NCBI GenBank assembly: GCA_027923505.1
Contig: BROI01000019.1
Coordinates: forward strand, 682,001 to 720,860
DNA: 38,860 bases
Reading direction: 5' to 3'
From: Mayamaea pseudoterrestris
Taxonomy: Eukaryota
Below are positions 7,775-28,865 of the stretch, in pieces (position 1 is the stretch's first letter; each line of letters begins with the position of its first letter). Below the pieces are notes generated by a model. It was given only the letters and a program-made list of their open reading frames with translations. It was not told the DNA's origin and searched no databases. The translations under genes and the position numbers were made by a program.

Positions 7775-8119
7775 ACTTCGCTTTCCAGCACAGTTCTTAC
7801 GGTAGGAAATCTATGACTTTGCATTTACTAGTAACTCATGTGTTTACGGCATTAACTTGGACCGCGAATCGCCTACAAGCAGTGATGGACCTGCTTCCTG
7901 TAAAATTAATATCTATATAATTTCATCATTGCTCAGCTTTTGAGTCTGTCATTTCATTTGCAAAGACTTTTGCACGGCTGCTGTTCGAGTGCGGCGCCAA
8001 TTGAACGAACTGTCGTTGGTTGCTGTCGTGATTGATGAAACTCGTACTATGAATCGTCTTTGCCTTGTTTCCGATTGGCATGGTTAACGTCAATGTTTTC
8101 GCAATAAAGAACCAAACTT

Positions 8120-10408: not shown

Positions 10409-10581
10409 TGCGGCGGCTTGAGAGCTTACAGCTTACAGCTGACAGTTGACAGTGAATGGAGCGATCTGAAGCTCGTCTCGATAGCGACAGTGGTAATGCA
10501 CAAAAGTTTTGAGAGAAAAAGCTATCGTCGACAAGGCCTTGCGCAGAACATGCTCGGCATGTTGGTCGAATTTTCGTTCGG

Positions 10582-10736
10582 CGAATCTCGCTTGGCGTTT
10601 CTCATCAATCGAAAGGTCGAGCGAGGTCGCAGACTTCGAGCAATGTTTTCATTGCCGCTTGCAGTCACCTGTTTCGCAAATCAAATCCCTTTCCGTGGAG
10701 TTGAATCCAAAGATATCATTAGGGTTACTAGATTCG
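10582..10736. promoter_or_regulatory. Two putative PSR (phosphate-starvation Myb) motifs YGAATCTH upstream of the SPX-MFS gene
   Basis: CGAATCTC at 10582-10589 and TAGATTCG (reverse complement CGAATCTA) at 10729-10736, with near-match TGAATCCA at 10702-10709. They lie in the divergent SPX-MFS/hemC intergenic region. The consensus is recalled from Phaeodactylum PtPSR work. Confidence 0.5.
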
Positions 10737-10875
10737 CCTGTTTGTCCGTCGCCCGCTGGAAGTGTCGCGATTTGCACTTCAACATGGTCGTTCATGTTTC
10801 GTGATTTTGCATCCATCGGCTTATCATTCCATCAAACCTTTCCCTATAGCTTCCATTAATACTCTTACAGCGAAA

Positions 10876-12046: not shown

Positions 12047-12411
12047 ATGTCATGTAATAACATATTCTACTGGGTCATTAAGCAATGGAATGTATGACGT
12101 AGTGGGCGCTCAACTACTTTCTTACGATAGATCATAATTTTGAAAGGCGAATCAGAGGCCTTCTGTGTTGCTCCCCACGACGTAGACTACAGCACGCCCG
12201 CTTTTGAACGTATATAAAGGCCTTAAAGACATTTATATATAATCTCAATTTATTCAAATAGTGTAATGACGGGCCTGGAGCCTGCCCGAAGACTGTTTCC
12301 CACTAGACGAAGCATCGATTGTCCCTTTCCGCGATGCCTCCTTCCATCTTGCACGAGAGTGTACCAGTTCTTTTCATGAGCCGTTTCACTGCTCATATTA
12401 TTATCCCCCAT

Positions 12412-13122
12412 TCATTCCAGATCACTTCCATGCAGCAATCCTTCTCTCATTTCATTATAGTATCGACCTGCGTCGTCCTCGTTGCTGCTAAAGAGAATCG
12501 TATTCAAGCCGGCTCCCCCACCTCCCCCACGCGAGCTCCGCCACGGCATTTTGCTCTTGACCCACTCGGTACACTGCGAGAGTCGCAACAAGATGGTTTG
12601 CGTGCACTGCATGCGAATGAAGACGAGCCAAAGTCCCCGACAGAAAAAGTAGATTCGGTAGCGATGGCTCATGATGGCGCCAAACAACAACACACTCAGC
12701 ACCAGCAGAATGCACCAGGCCAGCGTCTTGGCGAGAATGCGCAAAAAGGACAATTCATTCTGCGGCGGAGGTACTGGCGGCAATACCGGCGTTGGAGCCG
12801 TCGTGTACTGCTTGGAGGATGGAGCTTTCGTGGGCGATGCACTTGTAGGAACATGCGAATGGTTCTTGTGGTGATGATGATGGCGCGACGGAGCTTGACT
12901 GGGGGAAACAGTTGATAGACTAAATGGTGCTTCTGTTGCATTGTGATTTCCTGGTGGCGGTGCAACGTTTGGAGGATCCGCCGTTGGATGTATGGAATGC
13001 GGAGGAATCGAATGGATATTGGGAGTCGGTGCTGGCGTCGTCTCATCGGCGACGGCAAACATGCTACTCCAAATTCCTAGCAGCAGCATTATTCGCAGCG
13101 CTGACCTTCTCAAGCAAATCAT
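12412..13122 (-). CDS. Hypothetical type-I membrane protein (signal peptide, Pro/Thr/His-rich ectodomain, one TM helix)
   Basis: 236-aa ORF with a hydrophobic signal (IMLLLGIWSSMFAVA), low-complexity PTP/His run, TM segment LAWCILLVLSVLLFGAIM and C-terminal EMREGLL dileucine-like motif. No family recognised. Confidence 0.75.
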   Translation of the reverse strand: MICLRRSALRIMLLLGIWSSMFAVADETTPAPTPNIHSIPPHSIHPTADPPNVAPPPGNHNATEAPFSLSTVSPSQAPSRHHHHHKNHSHVPTSASPTKAPSSKQYTTAPTPVLPPVPPPQNELSFLRILAKTLAWCILLVLSVLLFGAIMSHRYRIYFFCRGLWLVFIRMQCTQTILLRLSQCTEWVKSKMPWRSSRGGGGGAGLNTILFSSNEDDAGRYYNEMREGLLHGSDLE

Positions 13123-13444
13123 TGTGTAAGTTATGCTGTTGCTGTTATGGAAACGGTATATAGAATTAGCGGAGTAGAATGGTCGGCCGGTCGACCAGTT
13201 CCCTTCGATGTGTGAGCGCGCGCATCCATTCGGATCTTCAGGATGTCGTACCGTGAATAGGCTTCTTTTCAGTCCCGGACGATCTTTCCACGTTGCAGTC
13301 GCGCTGCGTCATGGCATAAGCGACAACCACCATGAGGACACCAAATCGCGCGTCTACGTCGATACGATTGCCTTCATTCGAGGGCAGCAGGTTAAGCAGA
13401 GAGCAGGAGCGACTGTAAGCTTAAAGTAAAATTTTTACTAGCAG

Positions 13445-15371
13445 ATGAGTAGGATGAAGCGTTTCTCCTCGACGGCATCGAATATCATAGTCGTCTCCTG
13501 CTGGTGCTCATTCATGTTGATGAGGACCATGACAGTCCAGGCATTTGCGCCTCTCGCGAATCCTGTTATCATTTCAGGATCCAAGCTAGTTAATCAAAAT
13601 ACGCCATATCAGAAACCGGCTGCGTATACGACAAGGTCACTGCATCAACTATCCATGAGCAGTAGCATTCAAAAGACTATTCAATCCTTTGCCGACAAGC
13701 TACCGTCCACCAAGGTCGTTCAATCTGTTGAGCAACTCCAAAGGAACAGTCAGTCCATCATTGCCAGCGATGTTGCAGCATCCGCCGGAGTGTCTCTTTC
13801 ACAAGCCCGCCGTGACTTGACGACGCTGGCGGCCATTTCGCAGGGCGACATTTCTGTCAGTCGCGACGGCGAGTTGCTCTACAACTTTCCAACCAATCTG
13901 CAAGCGTCATTGGCAAGCAAGTCGGCGCAATACAAGACGCGCGAACTGTTCGAAAAAGCATGGCCTACCTTGTTTTGGGGAGTTCGTGTCACTTTTGGAG
14001 TGGCGCTGCTGGCGAGTGTTGTCGCCATTTTTTCGACAATATTCTTCATTTCCACGGCAAGTAGTAATAGTGATAACGATGACCGACGTCGAGGCAATCG
14101 AAATAGTTTTGGTGGTGGTGGTGGTGGTTTTGGATTCAGCTACTGGTTTGGGCCGTCGCCGTTTGATGTATTCTACTATCGCCCGTACGGATCCTATGGA
14201 GCTTATGGACGTCGATCCATAGAAGATGATGGCGAAATGGGTTTCTTGGAATCGATTTTTAGCTACATCTTTGGAGACGGAGATCCAAATCAACGATTGG
14301 AGGAGCGGCGACTTCAGCTGGCCTCGCAGATGATTCGTCAAAATCAAGGAGCTGTGACCGCGGAGCAGTTGGCGCCGTTTTGCGACGACTTGCCGGATCT
14401 AACGAGGCAGCTGGAAGCGACATTTGTTGATGAGGTGAGTTTTTTTGATTATTGATCGATCGCTGATAGCTTTACTATACAGAAAGCACTGACGGTGCTT
14501 CTTGTTGTTTCTGCACTAGAGCTTTGTCTTGCCGATTGTCACAGCGCTAAACGGAGAACCGCAGGTTACCGAAGAGGGAGAGATTGTATACGTGTTTCCA
14601 GATCTGCAAGTCTCGACAGGTGTGTCTGCACCACAGCCAGTACGGTCATCGGAAGCTTCCGTGTTGAAGCGAGCCGGCATTTCACCTCGAGCAACCAATC
14701 GTGATATCCAGCGACTGCTAGAATACAACGGAATATCCTCCCGCGGAGTCATTGAGCGAGCCGAGCTCATTGCCTTGCTAGAAAAAGCCTTGCCACCGCC
14801 GTCGCCGCGGGAGCGGGCTGCCATGATGGACGACGACCCAGCCGTCTTGCAGGAACAGGAGCTGGAGTTTAGTTTGGCGCCCGACATTAACAAGTTTCTG
14901 GCCGGCGGACTCGGTGTGCTGAATCTTGGAGGTGCATTGTACCTTGGTAACCTGTTTTCGCAAGCCGCGTTATACTCGGTGAAGTTGCCTGGCATTTACG
15001 GAGCTGTCCAAGCTTTTTACCCGGCACTATTGGCCTATGCGGTATTGTTTAACATTATCCCGCTGGTTCGAAACCTTTACATTAAACGAGAAAATGCCAA
15101 GATTCAACTACGCAACCAGCGTCGCAAGCAGTGGAAGGATGCTCTCCAACTTGCCATTGGCAATACGCGCAGTCGGATTGGAAGCAAGATTCAGGCGGCG
15201 CGACGATTTGGACTCAAGGTCAAGCGGCTGGGCAGCAGTCCTAGCGATGTTATTTTCGATACTCGACAGGAGATTGACGTGATTGAAAAGCAGCGCGAAT
15301 CGGATGCCTTGAAGCAGTTCGATCAGCAACTCCGCAAGGCTGAGCAGGAGCAAGACAATTCGTTCCAGTAA
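13445..15371 (+). CDS. At5g03900-like conserved plastid membrane protein; exons 13445-14434 and 14520-15371
   Basis: Signal peptide + VQA-FAP; SDVAASAGVSLSQARRDLTTLA..GDISVSRDGELLYNFP, RVTFGVALLAS, FLESIFSYIFGDGDPN..LEERR..IRQNQGAVTAEQLAPF; splicing gives DE|SFVLPIV..NGEPQVTEEGEIVYVFPDLQ. Confidence 0.85.
14435..14519 (+). other. Spliceosomal intron (85 nt)
   Basis: GTGAGT donor, CACTGAC branch-like site, CACTAG acceptor; restores frame. Confidence 0.88.
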
Positions 15372-15642: not shown

Positions 15643-17568
15643 ATGTTGAAACAAAGTCATCTCCATTTCACGAGACGACGACTTGGACTGTTTTTCTGTC
15701 TCGTTATAGCATCAGCTGCAGCATTTGCAGTGAATTCGCGAACAAGGTTTCCAGCATTAAATTTTCGATTGTCAGCGACAAATAATAATGATTCAACCTC
15801 GTCGGACGCAGCAATTCAATCCGATCCATCATCCGCATCCAAAGCGTCAATGTATGCCAGCGCTGTCTTGGAGAAGATTGTAACACTTCGAGACGAAGCG
15901 CGAGAATATGCAGAGTCGTTTGGTTTGGGCGAGTTCGAGGCCGAAACGTATGCTCTCTTTCGGGCCATTCGTAAAACGCCAGTGCCGCTAGGTTTAAAGG
16001 GACAACCGTTTGTTTTGCGACACTCCGAGTTGGCGCAAGCGCATGGCAGAAATGAAGCAGATCTATCAACAAGAAACTGGTTCACTATGAAGGATCTGGA
16101 GCAAGCATGCCGCGACGACTTTTTGGATGCCGCACGTGGAAGTACCAACAGTCAAAAGCCTTGGCAGATTTCCGCCGTTTCCATTCCCCGCGCCGACTCG
16201 TTTGAAGCGGCGCGCATGACCTACGAGGACGTATGCACAGCACTAGAGCAGGGGACTGTCATTTTCAATGCGGCTGGTGCGCACATTCCAAAATTAGCTG
16301 GACCGTCCTTGGCCGCGTGTGACGCAACGAGCTTGCCGTGCGCCTTGAATTTGTACGTGACGGCGCCCAAAATGAAGACGAGCGCACCTCCTCATACGGA
16401 CAAGCAGGATGTCATAGTCATGCAAACGAGCGGACGAAAGAGTTGGAAGATCTTTTCGATTCCGAATCCGGCGCACAAACCGCAGGCCGATATTTTTGCT
16501 CGAGGCAAGATGGAAGATAGTTTGCCGCTGCATACACTGACAGCGAACAAAGACAATCTACTGGTTGAGACGACACTGCATCCTGGCGATGTCATGTTTT
16601 GTCCAGCTGGCTTTCCGCACACGACTAGTACTGTCAATGATAATGACGGCGATGCCAGTGCAAAGGATGCCAGCCTACACTTGACACTTGGGCTGGACCA
16701 TCACATTTGGGAGCTCGACTATCTACAATCGAGGCGACTGGCGCTCAAGCGACAAGGCGTGGTTGATGTTGCGCTTGGGCAAACCAAGGATAGCGACAAC
16801 CCGTTTGTCGGCAGAGTGAACGAGCTACCGTTGTGGCTGCTAGCAGACATTCTTGCGGAGCTACCACTGGGGCTGCTGGACGAGGATGAAGAGACTGAAG
16901 ATAGAATTCAATCCATCTCTGCTGAGTTGGAACGTATCAGCCAACAGATTAATTCTGTGACCGCTGGTTTTGTCAACACCACAACCTGGAATGAGACTGT
17001 CCGACGAGTGCGTCAACAAGGAATTGAGATTTACGAGATACATCGGGACATGTACTTGGCAGCACTTGACGAAGGACGGCTACGAGAGGCAGAGCGAGCC
17101 ATGACGGCTCACTTGGATCAAACATCAAGCAGTCACTCCATGACTCCTGAACGGATACAGCGCCTGAGCTTGTTTCGAGTTAAAAAGTATTTCGACAAGA
17201 TTAATGATAGCAAGTCAGCACTGCAGACATGGTCGTGTAGTGGAAACGCTGCCGATGAAAGTATTTTGAACGTAGTTGCGAGTCTTCCGAAAAACTGGCA
17301 GTATACGCTTCCAATTCAAGTCGGCGACGAGGTAGAGGCCGATCTCGGAGGTGCCTTCTTCCCTGCTCGAGTAACCGGAAAGTCTGATGCGACGTACGAC
17401 GTTCGGTTTTTCGACGGCGATAAGGAATACGGTCTCGAACGAAGCATGCTCAAGCTTATGAACCCCCCATCGAGCACTTTGCATGATGGCGTGGACACTT
17501 CTGCTATGACCAAGAAGGAGCTAAAAAAACTGAAAAAGGAGCAAGATAAGTTGCTACGGTCAAAATAA
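15643..17568 (+). CDS. JmjC/Cupin_4 2-oxoglutarate oxygenase (ribosomal oxygenase NO66/MINA/RoxA-like) with C-terminal Tudor-like domain, probably plastid-targeted
   Basis: NLYVTAP...PPHTDKQDVIVMQTSGRKSWKIF (HxD) and LHPGDVMFCPAGFPHT (distal His), SLHLTLG. C-terminal VGDEVEADLGGAFFPARVT..TYDVRFFDGD Tudor-like segment. N-terminal SAAA-FAV presequence. Confidence 0.85.
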   Translation: MLKQSHLHFTRRRLGLFFCLVIASAAAFAVNSRTRFPALNFRLSATNNNDSTSSDAAIQSDPSSASKASMYASAVLEKIVTLRDEAREYAESFGLGEFEAETYALFRAIRKTPVPLGLKGQPFVLRHSELAQAHGRNEADLSTRNWFTMKDLEQACRDDFLDAARGSTNSQKPWQISAVSIPRADSFEAARMTYEDVCTALEQGTVIFNAAGAHIPKLAGPSLAACDATSLPCALNLYVTAPKMKTSAPPHTDKQDVIVMQTSGRKSWKIFSIPNPAHKPQADIFARGKMEDSLPLHTLTANKDNLLVETTLHPGDVMFCPAGFPHTTSTVNDNDGDASAKDASLHLTLGLDHHIWELDYLQSRRLALKRQGVVDVALGQTKDSDNPFVGRVNELPLWLLADILAELPLGLLDEDEETEDRIQSISAELERISQQINSVTAGFVNTTTWNETVRRVRQQGIEIYEIHRDMYLAALDEGRLREAERAMTAHLDQTSSSHSMTPERIQRLSLFRVKKYFDKINDSKSALQTWSCSGNAADESILNVVASLPKNWQYTLPIQVGDEVEADLGGAFFPARVTGKSDATYDVRFFDGDKEYGLERSMLKLMNPPSSTLHDGVDTSAMTKKELKKLKKEQDKLLRSK

Positions 17569-17894
17569 TGCATGCTTACGAAGCCAAGGTATAAGACTTG
17601 AAGCCATTTGTTACAATGAGTGATATGCGGTAGTAAATCTACCGTACCTGCGGTTCAGTATTTGGAGGAAGTAGACTATCGTTACGCTGCGGCACGAACA
17701 TTCGATGCCGTGAAGAAGTAAGTACCGTAGTCATCGCACCGCGTCTCACCTTCGTTTGCAATGACTTCGCCGCGACCCGCTTTCTAATACCACAAGTTTC
17801 CGTCGCTTCTCACCCGACGAAACGGCCGCAGTGCGCAAATCCACTAATAGTAGCTTTTTAACCTTTCCCTTACTCTGCCATTGCCGTCACAAGC

Positions 17895-18536
17895 ATGGAG
17901 GCTGCAACAAGGTTGCCATTCCCGGCGTGGAGCTCCTTCTGCCACCATGGCTACGAGTCAGCGCGCTCAGATGGAACTGATCCCTACAAAGAAGCGACGA
18001 ACGAAGTTGTTCGCTATGTATACCTTCATGGAAGTGATGCTACTTTTGGGGACGTCGTAAAAAGTACGGGTCAATTTTTGGTGACACTATGCGCCGCAAG
18101 ATTATTGCCACTGGACTGAAATGGATCAAGGCGTCGTACGGGAAAGCGGACGAACTTGATTTAGTTTGTGATCGTTTGTATGCCATGACCTTCCTCATCT
18201 CTCTCATTGAATCAAACAAAATACGGGTACGAGAAACAACAGCCAGGGCATATCAATAGGTCAACACTGACGAGTCACCGAAACATTTTCTTGTACTACT
18301 TGGAACGTGCCCCTTGTGATTGTTTCTATCTATTAATGGATTTGACGCGTTCTGTGCAAGAAGTGGAGATGTGCGTTAGAGAAGGCTGCAAAGTTACTTT
18401 GACTGTCACAAGCATGCTGGAATGCACCAAGTGCCGCGTAGCGTCATACTGCTCTGTAGCCTGCCAAGCAAAAGATTGGGCGGAACACAAAACTCATTGC
18501 AAAAATCTGCAAAAGATGCAGCACCTGCATACATAA
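17895..18536 (+). pseudogene. MYND zinc-finger protein gene broken by about two frameshifts (pseudogene or sequencing error)
   Basis: Frame 1 MEAATR..FCHHG.., a middle frame RKIIATGLKWIKASYG..FLISLIE, and a last frame RNIFLYYLERAPCDCF...CVREGC..CTKCRVASYCSVACQAKDWAEHKTHC (MYND). No clear GT-AG intron explains the shifts near 18095 and 18215. Confidence 0.7.
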
Positions 18537-18559
18537 AATTAAAGGGAAGTAACTATAAT

Positions 18560-19165
18560 GTTGTAGTTATGCAAGCAGAATAGATTGGTGCGAGCTTCTT
18601 GCCAGCAGTCTCAGACAGCTGATGCCATGATTTCTAGGAATCAGCATACAGTATGCCTGAATCAAACAAGAACGTGCCAACATTCTAATTTAGGCTTCTC
18701 TACAAGATGTCATGATTGTCCGGTGCATTCAATGCAGCAATGCCATGGGTGAAACTTCACACCAGTCCCAGCAAATGACAACGGCAACTTTCAGCAGCCC
18801 ATTCTCAAAGCCATCCCCATGACCAATAGACACCAGAACGGTGCCAACATTGTTTTTCTGTCTGCGCTACAAGATGGTATGCCTGGTTGGTGTCTCAATA
18901 GACTGCAATGTGATTGGTGAAAAGTTGTCGCCAGTCTCAGCCAGCAGATGTTGTGACATGCAAATGCCCATACATCAAGCCATGTAGACACCCAAATTAC
19001 ACAAGAATGGTGCCAACATCATTATTGAGGTTGCGCTACAATATGTTATGACTAACTGGTGGTTCAGTAGACTGCAATGTGATTAGTGACAAGTTGTCAC
19101 CAGTCTCAACCTGCAGATGCCTTGACATTGAATTGCCCATATAACATGCCATGTATACATCCAAG
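18560..19165. repeat. Satellite family C: about 3.5 diverged copies of a ~168-bp monomer
   Basis: CTACAA(G/T)ATG recurs at 18700, 18867 and 19036. GAA(C/T)(G)GTGCCAACAT and GATT(G/A)GTG...CAGTCTCA recur at the same period. Confidence 0.8.
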
Positions 19166-21525
19166 CCATGGACCTTGTCAAGCACCTTCTGTGGATTGCA
19201 GTAGCAGGTTAAGATTCTTGGTGGCCAGGTTGCATCACTTTACATATCCCATCTGAATCTATGACGTGGTGAAATTACTTGGAGGAACCTACTTGCTATA
19301 TTCATGCATAACCACTGGCTGACTGGCTTCCAAATTGGAACATCTCAACCTTTGACTTTGTCAAACATCTTATCCTGATTGCCACGGCATGCTCAGAATC
19401 GTGCTAGCAAGGCTGGATCATTACATACTCCCAACTGAAACTTTGCTGTGTTTGGCACATGGAACACCCTACTTGTTTCAGTCTCAGTCACACCACAGCC
19501 ACTGCCAGAGCACCTGCTGATTTCAAAGTTCCAAGCCTTGGACCTTGTCAAGCACCTTCTGCGGATTGCAGTAGCAGGTTCAGATTCTTGGTGGCCAGGT
19601 TGCATCACTATACAAATCTTATCTGAAACTTTGATGTGGTAGAACCACTTGGAGGAATCTACTTGCTAAATTCACGCATAACCACTGGCTGACTGGCTTC
19701 CAAATTGGAACATTGCAACCTTTGACTTTTTCATACATCTTATCCTGATTGCCATGGCATGCTCAGAATCATGCTAGCAAGGTTGGATCATTACATAAAT
19801 CCCAACTGAAACTTTGCTGTGTTTGGCGAATGGAACACCCGACTTGTTTCAGTCTCAGTCACACCACAGCCACTGGCAGAATTGCTGCCATTTTCAAGTT
19901 CCAAGCCTTGGACCTTGCCAAGCACCTTCTGTGGATTGCAGTAGCAGGTTCAGAGTCTTGGTGGCCAGGTTGCATCACTACGCAAATCCCATCCGAATCT
20001 ATGATGTGGTGGAACCACTTGGAGGACCCTACTTGTTATATTCACGCATAACCATTGGCTGACTGGCTTCTTAATTAAAACATCTCAACCTTTGACTTTG
20101 TCAAACATCTTATCCTGATTGCCATGGCATGCTCAGAATCATGCTAGCAAGGTTGGATCATTACATAAATCCCAACTGAAACTTTGCTGAGTTTGGCACA
20201 TGGAACACCCTACTTGTTTCAGTCTCAGTCACACCACAGCCACTGCCAGAACTGCTGCTGTTTTCAAAGTTTAAAGCCTTGGACCTTGTCAAGCACCTTC
20301 TATGGATTGCAGTAGCAGGTTCAGATTCTTTGTGGCCAGGTTGCATCACTATGCAAATCCAATCTGAATCTTTGACGTGGTGAAATTACTTGGTGGAACC
20401 ATTTTTCTATATTCACGCATAACCACTGGCTGACTAGCTTCCAAATTGGAACATTTGTCAAACATCTTATCCTGATTGCCATGGCATGCTCAGAGTCATG
20501 CTAGCAAGGTTGGATCATCACATAAATCCCAACTGAAACTTTGCTGTGTTTGGCACATTGAACACTTTTTTTGTTTCAGTCTCAGTCTCAGTCACACCAC
20601 AGCCACTGCCAGAATAGCTGCTGTTATCAAAGTTCCAAGCCTTGGACCTTGTCAAGCACCTTCTGCGGATTGCAGTAGCAGGTTCAGATTCTTGGTGGCC
20701 AGGTTGCATCACTATACAAATCCCATCTGAAACATTGATGTGGCGGAACCACTTGGAGGACCATACTTGCTATATTCACGCAATACCACTGGCAGACTAG
20801 CATCCAAATTGAAACATCGCAACCTTTGACTTTGTCAAACATCTTATCCTGATTGCCATGGCATGCTCAGAATCATGCTAGCAAGGTTGGATCATTACAT
20901 ATATCCCAACTGAAACTTTGCTGTGTTTGGCAAATGGAACACCCTACTTGTTCTAGTCTCAGTCACACCACAGCCACTGCCAGAACAGCTGCTGTTTTCA
21001 AAGTTCCAAGCCTTGGACCTTGTCAAGCACCTTCTGTGGATTGCAGTAGCAGGTTCAGATTCTTGTTGGCCAGGGTGCATCACTATACAAGTCCCATCTG
21101 AAACATTGATGTGGTGGAGTTACTTGGAGGACCCTACTTGCTATATTCATGCATAACCCCTGGCTGACTAGCTTCCAAATTGGAACATCTCAACCTTTTA
21201 CTTTGTCAAACATCTTATTTTAATTGCCATGCCATGCTCAGAATCATGCTAGCAAGGTTGGATCATCACATAAATCCCAACTGAAACTTTGCTGTGTTTG
21301 GCACATAAAACACCCTACATGTTTCAGTCTCAGTCACACTACAGACACTGCCAGAGGAGCTGCAGTTTTTAAAGTTCCAAGCCCAAGCCTTGGACCTTGT
21401 CAAGCACCTTCTGCGGATTGCAGTAGCAGGTTCAGATTCTTGGTGGCCAGGGTGCATCACTATACAAATCCCATCTGAAACATTGATGTGGTGGAACCAC
21501 TTGGAGAAACCTTCTTGCTATATAT
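19161..21525. repeat. Satellite family A: about 6.4 copies of a ~370-bp unit (dimer of ~187+183-bp monomers)
   Basis: CCTGATTGCC anchor at 19374, 19744, 20114, 20471, 20848 and (variant) 21219; high copy-to-copy identity. Confidence 0.97.
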
Positions 21526-21528
21526 CAA

Positions 21529-23448
21529 GCAGACCCCATGTTACAATCAATATGGCCTTGAACAATGAATGGGACTCATAGACTTGTTCATTTGGGCGTG
21601 GAAGCCATCACTATGCCCTGAAACTCCACACAATTAACCAATGGTTGAATGTGCCAGCCCTGCTCCCATATGGATGCAGGGATCATCAGCATTGCCCGCT
21701 GAGCCCTCCAATTTCTTTCAAACATGTTTGTTATCAATGCTGGGCCATAAGTTGGTCAGTTGCACCTCAGCATCCATCACCATGTATGCCACGGTGAGAC
21801 TGGGCAGATGCAACAACTTGTTGGATCTGCTAGCGGTGCACCTCAAGTGGCAAGTGAGACTTCCAAAATGGCCTGCAGACCCCATAATGCAACTAATAGG
21901 GACTTGAACATTGATTGGGACTCATAGACTTGTCCATTTGGGCGTGGAAGCCATCACTATGCCCTGAAACTCCGCACATTCAACCAATGGTTGAATGTGC
22001 CAGCACTGCTCCCTTTTGGCTGCAGGGATCATCAGCATTGCCTGCTGAGCCCTCCAATTTCTTTCAAATCATGTCTGTTGTCAATGATGGGCCATAAGTT
22101 GGTCAGTTGCACCTCAGCATCCATCACCATGTACGCCACGGTGAGACAGAGCAGATTCAACAACTTGTTGGATCTTCTAGTGGTGCACCTGAAGTGGCAA
22201 GTGAGACTTTTAAAATAGCCTGCAGACCCCATAATTCACCCAATATGGACTTGAACAATGATTGGGACTCATAGACTTGTCCATTTGTGCGTGGAAGCCA
22301 TCACTATGCCCTGAGACTCCGCACATTCAACCAATGGTTGAATGTGCCAGCCCTGCTCCCATATGGATGCAGGGATCATCAGCATTGCCCGCTGAGCCCA
22401 CCAATTTTTTCAAATCATGTGTGTTGTGAATGCTGGGCCATAAGTTGGTCAGTTGCACCTCAGCATCCATCACCATGTACGCCACGGTGAGACTGGGCCG
22501 ATCCATCAACTTGTTGGATATGCTAGCGGTGCACCTCAAGTGGCAAGTGAGAATTCCAAAATGGCCTGCAGACCCCATAATGCAACCAATACGGACTTGA
22601 ACAATGAATGGGACTCCTAGACATGTCCATTTGGGTGTGGAAGCCATCACCATGCCCTGAGACTCCGCACATTCAACCAATGGTTGAATGTGCCAGCCCT
22701 GCTCCCTTTTTGGCTGCACGGATCATCAGCATTGCCCGCTGAGCCCTCCAATTTCTTTCAAATTATGTGTGTTGTGAATGCTGGGCCATAAGTTGGTCAG
22801 TTGCACCTCAGCATCCATCACCATGTATGCCACGGTGAGACTGGGCATATCCAACAACTTGTTGGATCTGCTAGCGGTGCACCTCAAGTGGCAAGTGAGA
22901 CTTCCAAAATGGCCTGCAGACCCCATAATACAACTAATAGGGACTTGAACAATGAATGGGACTCATAAACTTGTCCATTTGGGTGTGTAAGCCATCACCT
23001 TGCCCTGAGACTCCGCACATTCAACCAATGTTTGAATGTGCCAGCCCTGCTCCCTTTTTGGCTGCAGGGATCATCAGCATTGCCCACTGAGCCCTCCAAT
23101 TTCTTTCAAATCATGTTTGTTGTCAATGGTGGGCCATAAGTTGGTAAGTTGTACCTCAGCATCCATCACCATCTATGCCATGGTGAGACTGAGCAGATCC
23201 AACAACTTGTTGGATCTGCTAGCGGTGCACCTCAAGTGGCAAGTGAGACTTCCAAAATGGTCTGCAGACCCCATAATTCAATCAATATGGACTTGAACAA
23301 TGAAATTGACTAATAGACTTGTCCATTTGGGTGTGGAAGCCATCGCCATGCCCAGAGACTGCGCACAGCATTGCCCGCTGAGCCCTCTAATTTCTTTCTA
23401 ATCATGTTTGTTGTCAATAATGGGCCATAAGTTGGTCATTCGCACCTA
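21529..23448. repeat. Satellite family B: about 5.5 copies of a ~347-bp unit (dimer of ~177+170-bp monomers, each with a 27-bp palindrome)
   Basis: GCAGACCCC anchor at 21529, 21875, 22222, 22568, 22916 and 23264. Confidence 0.97.
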
Positions 23449-23449
23449 A

Positions 23450-23810
23450 CCTGATTGCCATGGCATGCGCAGAATCATGCTAGCAAGGTTGAATCATTAC
23501 ATAAATCCCAACTGCAACTTTGTGGTGTTTGGCTCATGGAACACTTTACCTGTTTCAGTCTCAGTCACACCACAGCCACTGCCAGAATAGATGCTGTTTT
23601 CAATATTCCAAGCCTTGGACCTTGTCAAGCACCTTCTGCGGATTGCAGTAGCAGGTTCAGATTCTTGCTGGCCAGGTTGCATCACTATACAAATCCCATC
23701 TGAAACTTTGACCTGATGGAACCACTTGGAGGACCCTGCTTGCTATATTCGTGCATAACCACTGGCTGACTGGCTTCCAATTTGGAAAATCTCAACCTTT
23801 AACTTTGTCA
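23450..23810. repeat. Single further copy of satellite A
   Basis: CCTGATTGCCATGGCATGC...ACTTTGTCAA, one full A unit in the same orientation. Confidence 0.95.
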
Positions 23811-23815
23811 ATAAT

Positions 23816-23940
23816 TCCAAAATCATTATCCAGTCTGCCTTACAAGATGGTATGCCTGGTTGGTGTCTCAGTAGACTGCAATGTGATTGGTGACAACTTG
23901 TCACCAGTCTAAGTCTGCAGATGCTGTGACATGCAAATGG
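23816..23940. repeat. Partial copy of satellite C closing the block
   Basis: TACAAGATGGTATGCCTGGTTGGTGTCTCAGTAGACTGCAATGTGATTGGTGA...GTGACATGCAAATG is nearly identical to 18868-18967. Confidence 0.9.
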
Positions 23941-24642
23941 TATTATCTTGGTACACTGGATACTGTGTTAGTTTCTAATAGAAATCACTTTCAGCACTGT
24001 CTATTAAACAACGGCTCTTGGCTGTCAGTGACTGTAAAGATTGTGGATTTGCAATTCTCAGCCGGAGACTTGCCATTTCATCTGAATCCCTGCTAATCCA
24101 AATGCAGGGCTTGCATAGTTGGGGCTTGTAAACTGATTCTTTATTGATTGTACTTAATTCTTTGGATGGGAATAATGGGATATAGTATTCCCACTACATG
24201 CTTCTCTGCAAAGAAAATGTTTTCGCAAGCGCGACTGAAATGTGATTTGACTACCAATACCGGTGCGTCTCTTTCGTTTCGCGACGGATGCTTTTCTTTT
24301 CTCACCATTGTTTGTTGCGTGCAATACAACGACGGTATTATCCTTCGGATCCGCTTTTCTGGCTGCAAATAAAAGAATCGATCTCTAGCAAAGACAGTGA
24401 CAGAGCAAAGTCTTTTGTTTGCACATTTTTTCTTTTTGTTGGCGCGAATTACAAGTACGTTGGCAAATGCACGTTCTGCGCCGAGCTGAGAATCTGGTGA
24501 AGCGAGAGCGACTATCAAACAATGATAGTCCGATTGTTTGTCGCCAGCATCGCCAGCGATGATTGCAATGCATGTTTACAAACGTTTGCTCTATTGGTGT
24601 TTTCGCTCTTTCATGCACCTGATACTAGGGATACAACAACTG

Positions 24643-25680
24643 ATGACCGCCTCACAGTTCCTTCGCCCTTCGCCATCTCCCAGCATGTCCATTAGAAATA
24701 CCATTCACAGGGCTGTCATCGTGCGAAGATTTAATGATTGCAGGGCGAAAAATGTCACTAACCGGCTGGCTTCATCGTCAACTAGCGCCGAGGGACCATC
24801 GCCGACGCCAAAACCGCCATCTGTGGCCGCAATGAAACAGCAGCTATTGGAACGCTCGCTTCATCACGTGCATCAGCATGGATGGACACAGGAGGCGATC
24901 ATACAGGCTATCATGGAGCAACGACAACAACGAGCAAACCTTTCTCTTTCCATGGCTGGCCTTGTGACGCCAAAAGACTTGGTCTGTCATGCCATGGATA
25001 CGTTCCATCGCCGGCTCGAACATGACTTGCAAGGACAAGTCACTGATCCGTCAGAAACACCATCGGATCGAATGACACGTGCCATTCAGCTGCGACTTGG
25101 CTACCAGCGCGAGTTTATGGAGTCGCAAACCTGGCATCAGGCCATGGCGCTGGGCGCGTCGCCCGAGAATGTCATGCACACGCAGCAGCAACTGAAACGA
25201 CTCGTTGAATTGATTTACCAATATGCTTACAGCAAAGGTTCCATGCAGCAAAGCAATCAGTTTGCCAAGCTTACTCTGGGAGGGATTTACATGGCAACGG
25301 AGCTGCACATGCTGACAGACACATCCATCGACTACACTGATACGTGGACGTTTTTAAAGCAACGCATCCAAGAATGGAACCAAGCTGGCGCAACACTGCA
25401 GAATACACTTGGTCCACTGGCATCGACGGACACTCTGTATGTGACATCGGCGGTCGCGTCAGCGTTTGCGTCTGGGTTGGCGAGTTTGTTGCTACCCACG
25501 GCAATGACAGCGAGTAGTGCATTTTCGTCAAGCTTACCCAATATGAGCGCCATGGCAGCGACTCCGAGTCAAGTGCCAAACCAGATGTACGACTCTGTTA
25601 CGCAAACAAAGGCCGCAGACGATAATTTGGATGCGACTGATCCTAGATTCTACAAAGTACACGACGACAAGTTAAGATAA
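24643..25680 (+). CDS. COQ9: Ubiquinone biosynthesis protein COQ9, mitochondrial
   Basis: LLERSLHHVHQHGWTQEAI, AIQLRL, W.QAMALGASPEN, LGGIYMATELHMLTDTSIDYTDTWTFLKQRI; Arg/Ser-rich presequence. Start could be ATG 24643 or 24685. Confidence 0.88.
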   Translation: MTASQFLRPSPSPSMSIRNTIHRAVIVRRFNDCRAKNVTNRLASSSTSAEGPSPTPKPPSVAAMKQQLLERSLHHVHQHGWTQEAIIQAIMEQRQQRANLSLSMAGLVTPKDLVCHAMDTFHRRLEHDLQGQVTDPSETPSDRMTRAIQLRLGYQREFMESQTWHQAMALGASPENVMHTQQQLKRLVELIYQYAYSKGSMQQSNQFAKLTLGGIYMATELHMLTDTSIDYTDTWTFLKQRIQEWNQAGATLQNTLGPLASTDTLYVTSAVASAFASGLASLLLPTAMTASSAFSSSLPNMSAMAATPSQVPNQMYDSVTQTKAADDNLDATDPRFYKVHDDKLR

Positions 25681-25776
25681 AGCAGATTATGCGACACGGT
25701 GCGAATTGTTATAGTAGCGTAGAATGCGAGCTTCACGCATGCATGCAGTACTAGCCTAAAGAACGCGAAAGCACTG

Positions 25777-26970
25777 TTAGCTGACAAACTCCAAGCCAGT
25801 AACGGCAGCGTCCATTAGTTTCGACGAACGCTTATCGGCGACAGCCGGTGTCGCCCGTTGGTTGTGAGCATTGGAGACTTGCAACACGTTGTTGCGCTTG
25901 TCAATGATTGTCTTTTTATTCTTGGCAGAAGCCAAGGGCACTGGCTCAGCATCCTGATTCCTTTTAAAGTCGGCGGCGCTTGTTCGTTTCTTGCCTTGCG
26001 ACCAAATGCCTGTCTTCTTCGCTTGCGCTTTGGCAATCTTCTTTTCCAAAACAATTCGCTTGTCCTGCAGAGGAAGAAGTTGTAGTACTCATGTGAGGCC
26101 AGAACTGCGTTAACGTTGGCCCAATTCGCATCATCAAGTTGCAGCTATGCATCGGTGAACGCTACTTACAAAATACTCGGCTCCGCCACCAGTGTACAGT
26201 TCCGCCAACCCTTCTCGAGCCAGCTCCATGCTCAAATCCTTCTTGCCCAGACCAAACTTCCAAAATGGCGAAACAGTCTCCACTGCGCTTACAGCTCTGC
26301 CATATTGGTCTCGTCGCAAGAAGGTAATCTTAACCATTTGATGCAGCAGCAGATTGCTCGTAAACTCCTTGGCTTCTTCCGCAAACGGCTGTCCCGCCTT
26401 GCCACTCTTGGCAATCTCTGGACAGTCCACTCCATATATACGAATCGACATGGTTTGATCAGCAATCCCTCGCGTCGTGAGTGGCGATGGCTTGCGACCA
26501 GTCAAGCCAAAGAATGGAACATGTCGCACGCGAATGGTATCGCCGTCAATGACGCGCTCCACGAGCGCGTACACGGACCGCTGCTCGACAAAGTAGGACT
26601 TTGGAACGTCTGCGACTGTTTCAAACTGGAATTTGTAAAAGGGAAAGTTGAGAGTTTGTTCGCGGCGGCGAGGCAAGGGAATGCTCGTTGATGAAGCAGC
26701 AGCAGCGTAGACGGAAGGTTGCGAAATAATGGAGGATGTTGCAATGAGTATTGCTGCAGTCGACGCTCGAAGCAGAAAGGACTGACGAGAATGTCTCGAT
26801 GTCAAAGTCGTCCGATGCTGAGTATTGGTGCTTGCGCCTTCCTTTGAATCTGTCGTCGTGGTTGCAGGTTGCTGTGGCGGCAGTTGCTCCTTTCTCGTCG
26901 CTCGAAACAGCTTGCTAAAGTCTCGGCGACTTGCTGACAGCGCAGTCACAACTGCTACCGATAACAGCAT
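25777..26970 (-). CDS. Staphylococcal nuclease (TNase/LCL3-like) with N-terminal targeting sequence; exons 26970-26170 and 26064-25777
   Basis: VIDGDTIRV, IRIYGVDCPE, QPFAEEAKEF, DQYGRAV, LAREGLAELY; splicing gives GAEYF|DKRIVLEKKIAKAQAKKTGIWSQG. Start codon uncertain. Confidence 0.88.
26065..26169 (-). other. Spliceosomal intron (105 nt) in the nuclease gene
   Basis: Minus-strand GTAAGT donor at 26169 and CTGCAG acceptor ending 26065; in-frame join. Confidence 0.85.
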
Positions 26971-27200
26971 GCATAAAACCTTCAATGAAAAGGATCTCTT
27001 GAGACATGATGCTTGGTAGCTACACCGAAGATCGGATAAGCGTCATTCGACATCATTTCACTGGCGACACACATCGATGCCGGCTTCACCTTAATCAAAA
27101 TCATTTTAAGCTCACCTTGTTCCAGCACATGTCCAAGACCGAGCGTGAAAATAAAGCTAGTGCAAGTGCCAAGATAATGCCTGATAGTTGAGCGTCTTTC

Positions 27201-27227
27201 GCCATGGTGCCATGGTGCCATGGTGCC
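27201..27227. repeat. Short tandem repeat (GCCATGGT)x3
   Basis: gccatggt gccatggt gccatggt gcc, seen directly. Confidence 0.9.
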
Positions 27228-27249
27228 GTTGGCGACGATCTGCAATGGG

Positions 27250-27581
27250 GGCACTACTACGAAACGAGTGCCAGTGTCAATTACGTCACAAGGCATTAGT
27301 ACGAAACGAGTGCCAGTGTCAATTACGTCACAAGGCATTAGTACGAAACGAGTGCCAGTGTCAATTACGTCACAAGGCATTAGTACGAAACGAGTGACAG
27401 TGTCAATTACGTCACAAGGCATTAGTAGAAACGAGTGCCAGTGTCAATTACGTCACAAGGCACTAGTACGAAACGAGTGCCAGTGTCAATTACGTCACAA
27501 GGCAATAATATGAAACGAGTGCCAGTGAAAACTACGTCATAAGGCAATACTACGAAACGAGTGCCAGTGAAAACTACGTCA
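27250..27581. repeat. 42-bp minisatellite, 8 copies, in a divergent intergenic region
   Basis: Unit TACGAAACGAGTGCCAGTGTCAATTACGTCACAAGGCATTAG starts at 27258, 27300, 27342, 27384, 27426 (1-nt deletion), 27467, 27509 and 27551. Confidence 0.97.
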
Positions 27582-27683: not shown

Positions 27684-28865
27684 ATGGCATCGACTGGCGC
27701 TCCAACAGCAGCGACCTCGTCTCTTCAGACACTGCAACGCCTCGAAGAGACGCTCAAGTCTCTTCCCGACAAGGAATCTGCTCCCAAGCTCTCCCACTAT
27801 CGAGCCATTCCGTCGTCGCTCCAAAATGCATTCGACCTGCTCCAACAGGCAGCATCAAGCATTCACGCTAACAGCACCAAGTTTGCCTTAATGGGCAAGA
27901 TTGATGTTTCTCAAGCTACTGAAATGGCCCGCGATACCTTACTACCAGGATGTCAATGGATATGTACGGGAGCACTGGTGGTGCACCAGGATTCGACGGG
28001 CTGCACCAAGTCGTTGCGGCATGCCATCAAGCGAGCGACGCGAGCAGTACTGCAATCCACGATTCAACTTGTTCAATGCTTTACTGGAGATGCAGCGGCA
28101 TTCACGGAGAATGAACAATTGGCGGCCCAACGAACAGGAGCGGTATGGGAAGCTTGTCAAACAATTTTGAACATGCAAAATGGCCAATCTTCGTCTTTGC
28201 CAATCTCGAATCAATTAGCCATGCGGCGCGAATTCTCCATATACATCAAAGAATGCAATGAAACAATGCAAGAGTTCCAGGAAATGATCGATGCTGGACC
28301 GAGCTTGGACGAGGGTAAGGAGCACGAGAACGGTGATGGCGAAGCAGACGAGATTGACGAAGGCGAGGAACCATCATGGGAACAGTTTCTTGGAGGTGGA
28401 ACTGACCAATACACTCTGCAGGAAACCCCTATCGCAACTTCTGCTTTGGCTCTAGTTAAATGCTCCCGCGGCTGCATCAATGTAGCAATGCAAGCGTGCG
28501 ACGACGTTGGTAAGAGTTTGACAGAGGATGCCACAGGTAACGGCAACGAACTCTCGAATGTAGACGAGGCTCGATTGCAATGGATATTGCGGTTGTTCAA
28601 CTGCGCTCAAGCTGTCGGTGAGGGCATGACGGATTTGGGAGCAGCCATGTATCCGCCAATTAAGAGGCAAGAGCTGGAATGCCAAATTCTGAGACAGTGC
28701 GCTGCGATGGAGGAGTTGCTGGCTTGCCTCTTTGATAGAACTTTGCCAGAGTACGAATCTTTTGATTTGGGACGGAATGTGAGTAATCTAGCGACGAAGC
28801 TTCAGTTGGCGGTGGGTAGACGGAAAGATGAAGCTCTGGAGGCTGTTGCACTGGGTACAGATTAA
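27684..28865 (+). CDS. GCIP / cyclin-D1-binding protein 1-like protein
   Basis: 393-aa helical protein with IHANSTKFAL, AAQRTGAVWEAC, ECNETMQEFQEM + acidic stretch, and GMTDLGAAMYPP, all typical of the GCIP family. Confidence 0.75.
   Translation: MASTGAPTAATSSLQTLQRLEETLKSLPDKESAPKLSHYRAIPSSLQNAFDLLQQAASSIHANSTKFALMGKIDVSQATEMARDTLLPGCQWICTGALVVHQDSTGCTKSLRHAIKRATRAVLQSTIQLVQCFTGDAAAFTENEQLAAQRTGAVWEACQTILNMQNGQSSSLPISNQLAMRREFSIYIKECNETMQEFQEMIDAGPSLDEGKEHENGDGEADEIDEGEEPSWEQFLGGGTDQYTLQETPIATSALALVKCSRGCINVAMQACDDVGKSLTEDATGNGNELSNVDEARLQWILRLFNCAQAVGEGMTDLGAAMYPPIKRQELECQILRQCAAMEELLACLFDRTLPEYESFDLGRNVSNLATKLQLAVGRRKDEALEAVALGTD

What the first reader, a model, noticed from the sequence alone, without database searches (positions are those of the whole stretch)
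18560..23940. Nested C-A-B-A-C block of three satellite families, all with monomers of about nucleosome length: candidate diatom centromere or heterochromatin organiser
Seen: a ~5.4-kb non-coding island in otherwise compact gene-dense DNA, made of family C (~168 bp), then A (370 = 187+183), then B (~347 = ~177+170), then one A, then C again. C resumes almost in phase: it stops at ...CATCCAA (19165) and restarts at CCAAAATCATTAT (~23817), about 20 bp further along the C consensus. This looks like A inserted into C and B inserted into A, with short junction microhomologies (TCCAA, GCA, GCACCT). Established: monomers of nucleosome length, higher-order dimers, and layered arrays with younger families inside older ones characterise animal and plant satellite centromeres. 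The mapped Phaeodactylum centromeres are few-kb low-GC regions without such satellites. Inference: this may be a compact satellite-type centromere or chromatin-positioning element of a kind I do not recognise from diatoms.
Basis: partly seen in the sequence, partly recalled or inferred. Interest (0 to 1): 0.8.

Follow-up and report, generated by a model that had tools for sequence, protein, structure and literature searches.

The report
Methylation-scarred nested satellite island in a diatom
A 5.4-kb gene-free island in a compact diatom genome is built from three unrelated tandem-repeat families nested inside one another; the same families appear to be very abundant elsewhere in the genome, which makes them the first candidates for satellite heterochromatin or centromere DNA in a diatom, although nothing shows that this island itself is a centromere.

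Summary
TRF and self-BLAST give the order C (about 169 bp), A (371 bp, a dimer of 183+188), B (348 bp, an old dimer of about 177+170), A, C at 18.56-23.94 kb. Both interrupted families resume nearly in phase.

The organism is most likely the pennate diatom Mayamaea pseudoterrestris.

New evidence:
- Contigs of three sequencing runs from two studies pile up on A and B at roughly 100-500 times flank depth, and on C at thousands of times. Window-specific variants and the B|A junction sit near single-copy depth. The families are therefore genome-wide satellites, while this cassette is unique.
- The island is the only CpG-poor stretch of the window (o/e 0.20 against about 1.1) and has excess TpG/CpA. 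This is the footprint of long-term cytosine methylation.
- Both halves of B keep a perfect 13-bp-arm palindrome through three compensatory changes.
- The island fails the low-GC test of Phaeodactylum-type centromeres. It has no transposon termini.

Best reading: a silenced interstitial satellite island built by nested, microhomology-associated insertions. Centromere function is untested and unlikely here. No whole genome was held, so one-cluster-per-chromosome could not be checked.

The parts
18562..18665 (.). Decayed partial C copy at the left edge of the island
   Evidence: Read by eye (GATTGGTG...CCAGCAGTCTCAG resembles the C consensus). BLAST did not find it. It sits at flank depth.
18666..19164 (.). 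Three C monomers (164, 169 and 166 bp), the outer and oldest layer
   Evidence: Pairwise identity is 74-80%. Bin 18746-19036 has summed word depth 1,466,558 / 216,588 / 155,513 in X1/X2/X3, against flanks of about 110 / 32 / 6.
19160..21531 (.). A array: 6.4 copies of a 371-bp dimer (183+188)
   Evidence: Copies are mostly 89-93% alike. Bin depth is 11,777-80,034 in X1.
21531..23447 (.). B array: 5.5 copies of a 348-bp old dimer. The last copy lacks 54 bp, including its B1 palindrome.
   Evidence: Full copies are 91-94% alike. Bin depth is 51,781-168,026 in X1.
23447..23810 (.). Right-hand remainder of the A array (A positions 212-368, then 1-204)
   Evidence: The B|A junction at 23439-23449 has depth 227 / 20.6 / 13.6 in X1/X2/X3, which is about 1-2 times the flanks (table 3).
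23817..23939 (.). Right-hand remainder of the C array (C positions 15-137), 87% like copy 18830-18998
   Evidence: Contigs bridge from it into the right flank in X1, X2 and X3 (table 8, records 7, 14, 22).
21974..22000 (.). B1 palindrome with 13-bp arms around one central base. The same site lies at 21628, 22321, 22667 and 23015.
   Evidence: perfect in 3 of 5 copies, with 1 and 3 mismatches to the 27-base motif in the other two. 0 of 1000 shuffles reach 13-bp arms.
23193..23219 (.). B2 palindrome at the homologous place of the second half. The same site lies at 21804, 22151, 22497 and 22845.
   Evidence: perfect in 1 of 5 copies. The motif searched, which is the perfect copy at 23193-23219, is the majority sequence of the five by my reading. 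3 of 13 pairs differ from B1 on both sides and still pair.
23888..23906 (.). C palindrome with 9-bp arms. It is decayed in the left copies at 18915 and 19084.
   Evidence: 5 of 1000 shuffles reach 9-bp arms.
18500..24000 (.). CpG-depleted, TpG/CpA-enriched domain that coincides with the island
   Evidence: 55 CpG in 5,381 bp, o/e 0.20, against 1.12 and 1.07 in the flanks. It is the only run of 1-kb windows below 0.6 in the window.
18189..18536 (+). Last exon of the left neighbour, a MYND zinc-finger gene. Its stop codon lies about 25 bp before the island.
   Evidence: Pfam zf-MYND, E 1.3e-09.
24559..25680 (+). Right neighbour, a COQ9 gene. Its start lies about 620 bp after the island.
   Evidence: Pfam COQ9, E 9.6e-11.

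Best explanation
The block is a unique, non-coding, interstitial island of satellite DNA in gene-dense euchromatin of a diatom, most likely Mayamaea pseudoterrestris. It belongs to three unrelated satellite families whose main bulk lies elsewhere in the genome.

Shown:
- A short C array came first.
- A piece of an A array of about 7.5 monomers now sits inside a C monomer. It joins at a 5-bp overlap, and about 17 bp of C are lost.
- A piece of a B array of about 5.5 monomers sits inside an A monomer. It joins at a 3-bp overlap, and 62 bp of A are lost.

Inferred: the donors were arrays elsewhere in the genome. The joining was by microhomology-mediated end joining or replication template switching, possibly through extrachromosomal satellite DNA.

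Shown as a sequence footprint, and inferred as to chromatin state: the families have long been CpG-methylated, as repeats are in other diatoms. The island is therefore probably a small silenced patch between the 3' end of a MYND gene and the COQ9 promoter. It is most likely a by-product of satellite turnover rather than a working centromere.

The palindromes kept in both halves of B suggest that hairpin or cruciform-forming DNA matters to the spread or maintenance of that family. This last point is inference.
For: - Structure and phase.
- The families are unrelated to each other.
- The families are high-copy elsewhere. X1, X2 and X3 laid 17,576, 5,069 and 11,134 contigs on 8.7 kb. Depth at single positions, for example 32,298 at 19641 and 52,778 at 22075 in X1, compares with flanks of 93-123. 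At 19641, 99.6% of that depth reads another base than the window.
- The cassette itself is unique. The B|A junction is at about 1-2 times flank depth. Window-specific pieces are at or below flank depth: X1 record 3 (20274-20435, 0 differences, depth 60.9) and X2 record 11 (18998-19151, depth 22).
- Flank-to-C junctions are bridged by contigs in X1, X2 and X3 (table 8).
- No terminal inverted or direct repeats flank the block, and there are no telomere repeats.
- Non-coding. No RNA family.
- CpG o/e is 0.20 inside against 1.07-1.15 outside, with sharp borders. My majority consensus of the six full A copies has 1 CpG (o/e 0.05) and that of the five full B copies has 5 (o/e 0.23).
- In P. tricornutum, loss of DNMT5a removes methylation globally and young transposable elements are overexpressed (abstract of PMC9998398).
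- Precedent: in Drosophila, Rsp-like satellite arrays inserted into 1.688 arrays at 4-7-bp microhomologies, with small deletions of the host repeat (passages of PMC7403614).
Against: - The circle-reintegration signature described in PMC7403614 is that the first and last truncated monomers add up to one monomer. It is not met. A starts at phase 1 and ends at 204 of 371. B starts at phase 1 and ends at 238 of 348.
- Overlaps of 2-5 bp are weak evidence by themselves.
- The same nested picture could arise by in-place layered expansion.
- Copies show no neighbour gradient, so the order of events rests on topology alone.
- The tool warns that summed contig depth is not a copy number. All abundance figures are orders of magnitude only.
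- No contig shown spans the inner C|A and A|B junctions, and no piece spans the whole block. Long-read confirmation of the internal order is missing.
- The compensatory changes in the B palindromes hint at selection on structure, which a pure by-product reading does not explain.
- Methylation is inferred from sequence and was not measured.
Confidence: 0.55

Rival explanations
1. The island is the functional centromere, or a relic or nascent one, of its chromosome. On this reading it is a compact satellite-type centromere with a layered structure: B youngest in the core, A around it, C outside.
For: - Units of nucleosome length in dimers, arranged in a nested and symmetric order.
- The families are abundant genome-wide, as centromeric satellites are.
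- The only gene-free stretch of the window, with a slight GC dip (45.9% against 49.8%).
- Strong conserved dyad symmetry in B and a weaker one in C. From my own recall, not looked up here, dyad symmetry is reported to be enriched at centromeres of several eukaryotes.
- A methylation footprint typical of centromeric and pericentric repeats.
Against: - Only 5.4 kb long.
- Copies are 87-95% (A, B) and 73-87% (C) alike. B is barely more uniform than A, so there is no young homogenised core.
- The local C copies are diverged members. Abundant C variants part from them at fixed points (loose ends), and the two leftmost copies attract no extra depth.
- 0 windows of 100 bp in the block are at or below 32% GC. 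The lowest 500 bp is 41.4% GC. Mapped P. tricornutum centromeres need under about 33% GC and lack repeats (passages of 10.1101/096016). Putative Fistulifera centromeres are 36-42% GC (passages of 10.1101/2021.11.10.468027).
- No protein-binding, Hi-C or per-chromosome data could be obtained.
Confidence: 0.12
2. The assembled block is a collapsed or partly chimeric picture of a much longer satellite region. The true locus would hold many more A, B or C copies, and the neat C-A-B-A-C order would be partly an assembler's product.
For: - Depth over A, B and C is hundreds to thousands of times the flanks.
- The assembly was made from Nanopore reads with N50 8.6 kb, by merging two assemblers' outputs and purging haplotigs (passages of PMC9724779).
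- No contig shown spans the whole block.
Against: - Window-specific monomer variants are at or below flank depth (X1 record 3, depth 60.9; X2 record 11, depth 22). The B|A junction is at about 1-2 times flank depth.
- Most of the extra depth reads other bases than the window (for example 99.6% at 19641). It therefore comes from other variants, not from extra copies of these monomers.
- Both outer junctions are bridged in X1, X2 and X3, which come from two studies.
- 5.4 kb is within reach of the reported read lengths.
Confidence: 0.15
3. The block is the internal repeat region of a non-autonomous transposon or other mobile cassette.
For: Tandem repeats are common inside some mobile elements, and the block lies as an insertion between two closely spaced genes.
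Against: - No terminal inverted or direct repeats were found at the edges. The best match between the two flanks is a 12-bp inverted word about 280 bp away from both edges (E 0.06).
- No transposase or other Pfam domain.
- The three families have very unequal depths (C far above B, B at or above A), and the B|A junction is near single copy. The cassette as a unit is therefore not dispersed.
Confidence: 0.03

Closest known systems
Euchromatic 1.688 / Rsp-like satellite clusters on the Drosophila simulans-clade X chromosome (PMC7403614, passages read)
   Same: Short arrays of complex satellites lie in gene-rich DNA. One unrelated family is inserted into arrays of another. Junctions sit at short microhomologies, with small deletions of the host repeat. 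The same families are abundant elsewhere in the genome.
   Different: - Here there are three families and two levels of nesting at a single locus.
- The monomers are dimers of nucleosome-length units.
- The circle-reintegration signature (complementary first and last monomers) is absent.
- Whether the same junction types recur at other loci could not be examined.
Satellite DNA spread into gene-rich regions of Tribolium castaneum (PMC11610590, seen only as title and abstract in the listing)
   Same: Major satellites also occur as short arrays inside gene-rich regions.
   Different: An insect with a large satellite load. I did not read the paper's text, so no detailed comparison is made.
Phaeodactylum tricornutum centromeres (preprint 10.1101/096016, passages read) and putative Fistulifera solaris centromeres (preprint 10.1101/2021.11.10.468027, passages read)
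   Same: A few-kb, gene-free, non-coding region in a compact pennate-diatom genome, with GC slightly below its surroundings.
   Different: Those centromeres are defined by low GC (100-bp windows at or below 32%; 500 bp under about 33%; 36-42% in Fistulifera) and are said to lack repeats. This island is 45.9% GC, has no such window, and consists wholly of tandem repeats.
Satellite-type regional centromeres of animals and plants with higher-order repeats and layered expansions
   Same: Units of about 170-190 bp, dimeric higher-order units, older diverged copies outside and more uniform ones inside, dyad symmetries, and CpG decay.
   Different: The scale differs (5.4 kb against tens of kb to Mb). 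Identity is lower (about 90% against over 95% in active cores). No evidence of CENH3 binding or of one array per chromosome.

Membership tests
Satellite DNA | Head-to-tail tandem arrays of a non-coding unit | tested here: met
   TRF and self-BLAST. No long ORF. 0 of 5 block ORFs hit Pfam. No protein homologues for two ORFs.
Satellite DNA | High copy number in the genome | tested here: met
   Summed contig depth over A and B is about 100-500 times the flanks, and over C about 7,000-26,000 times, in X1-X3. This is order of magnitude only; the tool warns it is not a copy number.
Phaeodactylum-type diatom centromere | Cluster of 100-bp windows at or below 32% GC, or 500 bp under about 33% GC | tested here: not met
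   0 such windows in the block, and 1 of 776 in the whole window, at 36151. The lowest 500 bp in the block is 41.4% GC. The criterion is taken from passages of 10.1101/096016.
Phaeodactylum-type diatom centromere | No repeats or conserved sequence features | tested here: not met
   The block is entirely tandem repeats.
Any centromere | CENH3/CENP-A occupancy, kinetochore function, or episome maintenance | not testable with these tools
   No ChIP, Hi-C or functional data were available.
Any monocentric centromere | One such region per chromosome | not testable with these tools
   No whole genome is held for this window. Contig depth shows abundance, not location.
Satellite-type regional centromere | Long, highly homogenised core array | tested here: not met
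   5.4 kb in all. A copies are 87-95% alike and B copies 87-94%, with no neighbour gradient. This holds only if the assembly is not collapsed.
Nested euchromatic satellite insertion (Drosophila 1.688/Rsp-like type) | An unrelated satellite inside another, joined at microhomology, with a small loss of the host repeat | tested here: met
   C is interrupted at position 166 and resumes at 15. A is interrupted at 149 and resumes at 212. Overlaps TCCAA and GCA were read. The families are unrelated.
Nested euchromatic satellite insertion (Drosophila 1.688/Rsp-like type) | Circle-reintegration signature: first and last truncated monomers add up to one monomer | tested here: not met
   The A insert runs from phase 1 to 204 of 371. 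The B insert runs from phase 1 to 238 of 348.
Transposon-borne repeat cassette | Common termini (inverted or long terminal repeats, target-site duplication) and dispersed copies of the whole cassette | tested here: not met
   No terminal repeats at the edges. The B|A junction is near single-copy depth, and family depths are very unequal.
Self-cleaving-ribozyme satellites and other RNA families | Match to an Rfam model | tested here: not met
   0 matches at gathering score in the window. The only match in the block has E 0.9, which is chance.

The most novel reading that the evidence does not exclude
C, A and B are the centromeric or pericentromeric satellites of Mayamaea pseudoterrestris. The diatom would then have satellite-type regional centromeres, unlike the repeat-free low-GC centromeres of Phaeodactylum. 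This island would be a miniature, relic or nascent centromere with layered structure. The conserved palindromes of B, and of C, would act as non-B-DNA signals for centromeric chromatin.
Probability: 0.12. Interest if true: 0.85.

Novelty: new member of a known kind. Interest (0 to 1): 0.5.

Why it matters
The diatom centromeres described in the papers I read are short, repeat-free, low-GC regions. Four full-text searches listed no paper describing nucleosome-length satellite families in a diatom. The genome paper of this species has no word beginning 'centromer' or 'telomer'. The passages I saw report repeats as mainly Copia elements. I did not search that paper for the word 'satellite'.

If the depth figures hold, a 30-Mb diatom genome carries a 169-bp satellite in thousands of copies and two dimeric satellites in hundreds. 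All three bear a methylation footprint.

That would give diatom biology:
- a concrete target for asking whether some diatoms have satellite centromeres or satellite heterochromatin;
- a natural case of nested satellite insertion outside animals and plants;
- possible new sequences to test for episome maintenance.

If the island is only debris of satellite turnover, it is still a clean, datable record of that process in a compact genome.

Tried and rejected
- Whole-genome search for A, B and C: not possible. No genome is held for this window.
- Synteny in relatives: one metagenome scan with the neighbouring JmjC protein gave a single 1.5-kb contig at 32% identity.
- Exact-motif scans: a C 18-mer and the B palindrome gave 0 hits in viral contigs. 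The C 18-mer gave 35 single hits in prokaryote genomes, about the number I estimate by chance for an 18-mer in 596 billion bases. I treated them as chance and did not examine them.
- Protein-level search for ORFs called inside satellite arrays elsewhere: the B ORF (131 aa) and the C ORF (75 aa) found no homologue.
- Ribozyme or other RNA families: none. tRNA: none.
- A common origin for A, B and C: rejected at the sensitivity used. By eye, the A2 stretch and the C stretch around the right junction share about 17 of 22 bases. This was not scored separately. The whole-unit A-C alignments do not exceed shuffles.
- Dyad symmetry in A: 6-bp arms, reached by 510 of 1000 shuffles. Rejected as a feature.
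- Whole-monomer folding of B as single-stranded DNA: z -0.9. Nothing beyond the two hairpins.
- Expression: no RNA holder was listed among the 7 runs.
- Runs X4-X7 hold only small shares. X4 (another organism's run from the same study as X1) shows low-depth C, A and B pieces and one flank piece at depth 2. I read this as carry-over of the same species, not as conservation across species.
- Earlier notes of this scan: nothing on this genome or on these sequences.
- The supplementary tables of PMC9724779 (repeat classes) were not opened. They may list satellite content.

Full report
**1. The observation**

Tandem Repeats Finder reports three arrays in the stated interval:
- period 169 at 18830-19164 (2.0 copies, 79% matches);
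- period 371 at 19160-21531 (6.4 copies, 88%);
- period 348 at 21529-23367 (5.3 copies, 91%).

Self-BLAST of one unit of each family against the window gives the full layout:
- C at 18666-19164;
- A at 19160-21531;
- B at 21531-23447, with 54 bp missing inside the last copy;
- A again at 23447-23810;
- C again at 23817-23939.

A still more decayed partial C copy seems to start near 18562. I read this by eye and did not test it with a tool.

The left C stops at unit position 166 of 169, and the right C resumes at position 15. The left A stops at position 149, and the right A resumes at position 212. Both interrupted families therefore continue a little downstream in the same phase, with losses of about 17 bp and 62 bp. 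I estimate the joint chance of two such near-phase resumptions at a few per cent.

A is a clear dimer of 183+188 bp (z 21, 0 of 200 shuffles). B is an old dimer that shows only under lax scoring (z 6.1, 0 of 300 shuffles; z 1.6 under strict scoring). A, B and C are not detectably related to each other.

The junction overlaps TCCAA and GCA hold when read. The other two junctions are less clean.

**2. Setting**

The window is gene-dense eukaryotic DNA. Pfam finds BOP1, DNA ligase, SPX-MFS, porphobilinogen deaminase, JmjC, COQ9, SNase, GCIP and Brix domains. The porphobilinogen deaminase is 100% identical over all 330 residues to a protein that its source names as Mayamaea pseudoterrestris, on a 720,860-bp contig.

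The genome paper of that species (PMC9724779, passages read) describes:
- a 30.6-Mb assembly in 41 contigs, made from Nanopore reads (N50 8.6 kb) and MiSeq reads;
- 19% repeats, 'mainly' Copia elements;
- 2.97% heterozygosity.
The text has no word beginning 'centromer' or 'telomer'.

The island lies between the stop codon of a MYND zinc-finger gene at 18536 and the COQ9 start at 24559.

It is non-coding:
- The longest stop-free frame is 131 aa.
- 0 of 5 block ORFs hit Pfam.
- Two ORFs have no homologue in the protein collection.
- There is no Rfam family and no tRNA.

**3. The families are abundant elsewhere, but the cassette is unique**

Seven public runs hold part of the stretch. I laid the contigs of four of them on 17000-25700 at 88% likeness.

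Summed word depth in X1 / X2 / X3:

| Region | X1 | X2 | X3 |
|---|---|---|---|
| Flanking genes | 93-123 | 25-44 | 0-12 (one bin uncovered) |
| C bin 18746-19036 | 1,466,558 | 216,588 | 155,513 |
| A bins | 11,777-80,034 | 679-7,288 | 836-4,425 |
| B bins | 51,781-168,026 | 4,703-14,470 | 2,374-7,362 |

- X1, X2 and X3 laid 17,576, 5,069 and 11,134 contigs on 8.7 kb. Most of them are only 90-95% like the window.
- At 19641, 99.6% of a depth of 32,298 in X1 reads another base than the window.
- Abundant C variants part from the window's C copies at fixed points (the loose ends).
- The two leftmost C copies attract no extra depth.

By contrast, some pieces sit near single-copy depth:
- X1 record 3, 20274-20435, no differences, depth 60.9;
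- X2 record 11, 18998-19151, depth 22;
- the B|A junction at 23439-23449, depth 227 / 20.6 / 13.6.

Contigs bridge both outer junctions into the flanking genes in X1, X2 and X3.

The tool states that summed contig depth is not a copy number, so I use these figures only as orders of magnitude. On that basis A and B have hundreds of copies and C has thousands. The cassette in the window is a single locus whose monomers are ordinary, somewhat diverged members of these families.

This speaks against a dispersed mobile cassette. It also speaks against a simple collapse of identical monomers. It does not show where the bulk of the families lies.

**4. Methylation footprint**

- The island has 55 CpG in 5,381 bp (o/e 0.20).
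- The two flanks have o/e 1.12 and 1.07. Other gaps between long ORFs have 1.15.
- TpG and CpA are raised to 1.74 and 1.64, against about 1.15-1.19 in the flanks.
- In 300-bp steps, the ratio falls from 1.2 to 0.3 between 18.3 and 18.6 kb. It rises from 0.08 to 0.85 between 23.7 and 24.0 kb.
- No other 1-kb window of the 38.9 kb is below 0.6.
- My majority consensus of the six full A copies has 1 CpG (o/e 0.05), and that of the five full B copies has 5 (o/e 0.23). The depletion is therefore a property of each family and not of one copied monomer.

Loss of CpG with gain of TpG/CpA is the classic result of deamination of methylated cytosine. That is established knowledge and was not measured here.

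In P. tricornutum, loss of DNMT5a correlates with global loss of DNA methylation and with overexpression of young transposable elements (abstract of PMC9998398).

I infer that these satellites are, or long were, methylated and silenced.

**5. Palindromes**

- Each half of B carries a 27-base palindrome with 13-bp arms. The B1 site is perfect in 3 of 5 copies and the B2 site in 1 of 5. By my reading of the alignment, the majority B2 sequence equals the perfect copy.
- Between B1 and B2, 3 of the 13 arm pairs differ on both sides and still pair (C-G to G-C, T-A to C-G, C-G to A-T).
- 91.3% of cells pair, against 27-40% when the partner is slid by 1-3 columns.
- 0 of 1000 shuffles of a B unit reach 13-bp arms.
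- The halves are otherwise so diverged that strict scoring does not find them. Keeping a perfect dyad through three double changes therefore argues for one of two things: selection on a hairpin or cruciform, or a mutational process that restores palindromes by templating within a strand. The data do not separate these.
- C has a 9-bp-arm palindrome in its right copy (5 of 1000 shuffles). It is decayed in the left copies.
- The dyads in A are not beyond chance (510 of 1000).
- The B unit as a whole does not fold unusually well (z -0.9).

**6. Centromere?**

The test used to find P. tricornutum centromeres looks for clusters of 100-bp windows at or below 32% GC, or 500 bp under about 33% GC (passages of 10.1101/096016). 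The island fails it. No such window lies in the block, and its lowest 500 bp is 41.4% GC. Putative Fistulifera centromeres are 36-42% GC and lack highly repeated elements (passages of 10.1101/2021.11.10.468027).

As a satellite-type centromere the island would be very small. Its copies are only 87-95% (A, B) and 73-87% (C) alike. There is no neighbour gradient, and B is barely more uniform than A.

The features that define a centromere could not be tested: CENH3 binding and one region per chromosome. I put the chance that this island is a working centromere, or a relic or nascent one, at about 0.12. Whether the big arrays of C, A or B elsewhere are centromeric, subtelomeric or something else, such as rDNA spacer repeats, stays open.

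**7. Mechanism proposed**

Shown: the nesting, the near-phase resumption, the short overlaps, the small host deletions, and the abundance of all three families elsewhere.

Inferred: pieces of ectopic A and B arrays were joined into a pre-existing short C array. The joining was by microhomology-mediated end joining or template switching.

The closest described case is the insertion of Rsp-like arrays into 1.688 arrays on the Drosophila X chromosome. Those insertions occur at 4-7-bp microhomologies, with small deletions of the host repeat (passages of PMC7403614).

That paper links circle reintegration to complementary first and last monomers. This signature is not present here, so a circular intermediate is not supported.

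No terminal repeats or telomere repeats were found.

**8. Novelty**

Four full-text searches listed no paper describing nucleosome-length satellite families in a diatom. A text search of the 49-genome diatom annotation paper found no occurrence of 'satellite' or 'tandem'.

The kind of thing (satellite DNA, nested interstitial arrays, CpG decay, dyad symmetry) is well known from animals and plants. I therefore file it as a new member of a known kind. The open and testable question it raises is whether some diatoms have satellite heterochromatin or satellite centromeres.

**9. Limits**

- No whole genome, long reads, methylation data or chromatin data were available.
- All abundance figures come from contigs, not reads.
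- The inner C|A and A|B junctions are not shown to be bridged by independent contigs.
- The supplements of the genome paper were not opened.

Noticed in passing
window 27250-27581: A second tandem array of 7.9 copies of a 42-bp unit (94% matches), with a 167-bp higher-order period. It lies between the SNase-domain gene (26134-26970, minus strand) and the GCIP gene (27684-28865, plus strand). In one minus-strand frame, four units read as a repeated 14-residue peptide inside ORF 26982-27422, which has no Pfam match. Whether it is coding or a promoter repeat is open.
   Followed up: partly
window 17912-18889: Contigs of X1 and X2, from two different studies, each show 12 base differences from the window over 979 and 919 bp of the left flank (table 8), and several of the listed differences (18504-18663, table 3) are shared by both runs. 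This is probably the second haplotype, since the genome paper reports 2.97% heterozygosity. Residual assembly error is the alternative.
   Followed up: no
window 23366-23367: The last B copy lacks 54 bp (B positions 103-156), including part of its B1 palindrome. The ends join at a 2-base overlap. This may be a palindrome-associated deletion.
   Followed up: no
window 18560-23940: GC skew is negative throughout the island (about -0.07 to -0.13), so C exceeds G on the plus strand in all three unrelated families. Among variant positions in the laid contigs, C>T is the commonest change and is about twice as frequent as G>A (42 against 22 in X1). The cause is unexplained.
   Followed up: no
window 34788-35780: An ORF with a weak, sub-threshold match to DUF6824 (E 2e-05, 25.4 bits against a cut-off of 27).
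   Followed up: no
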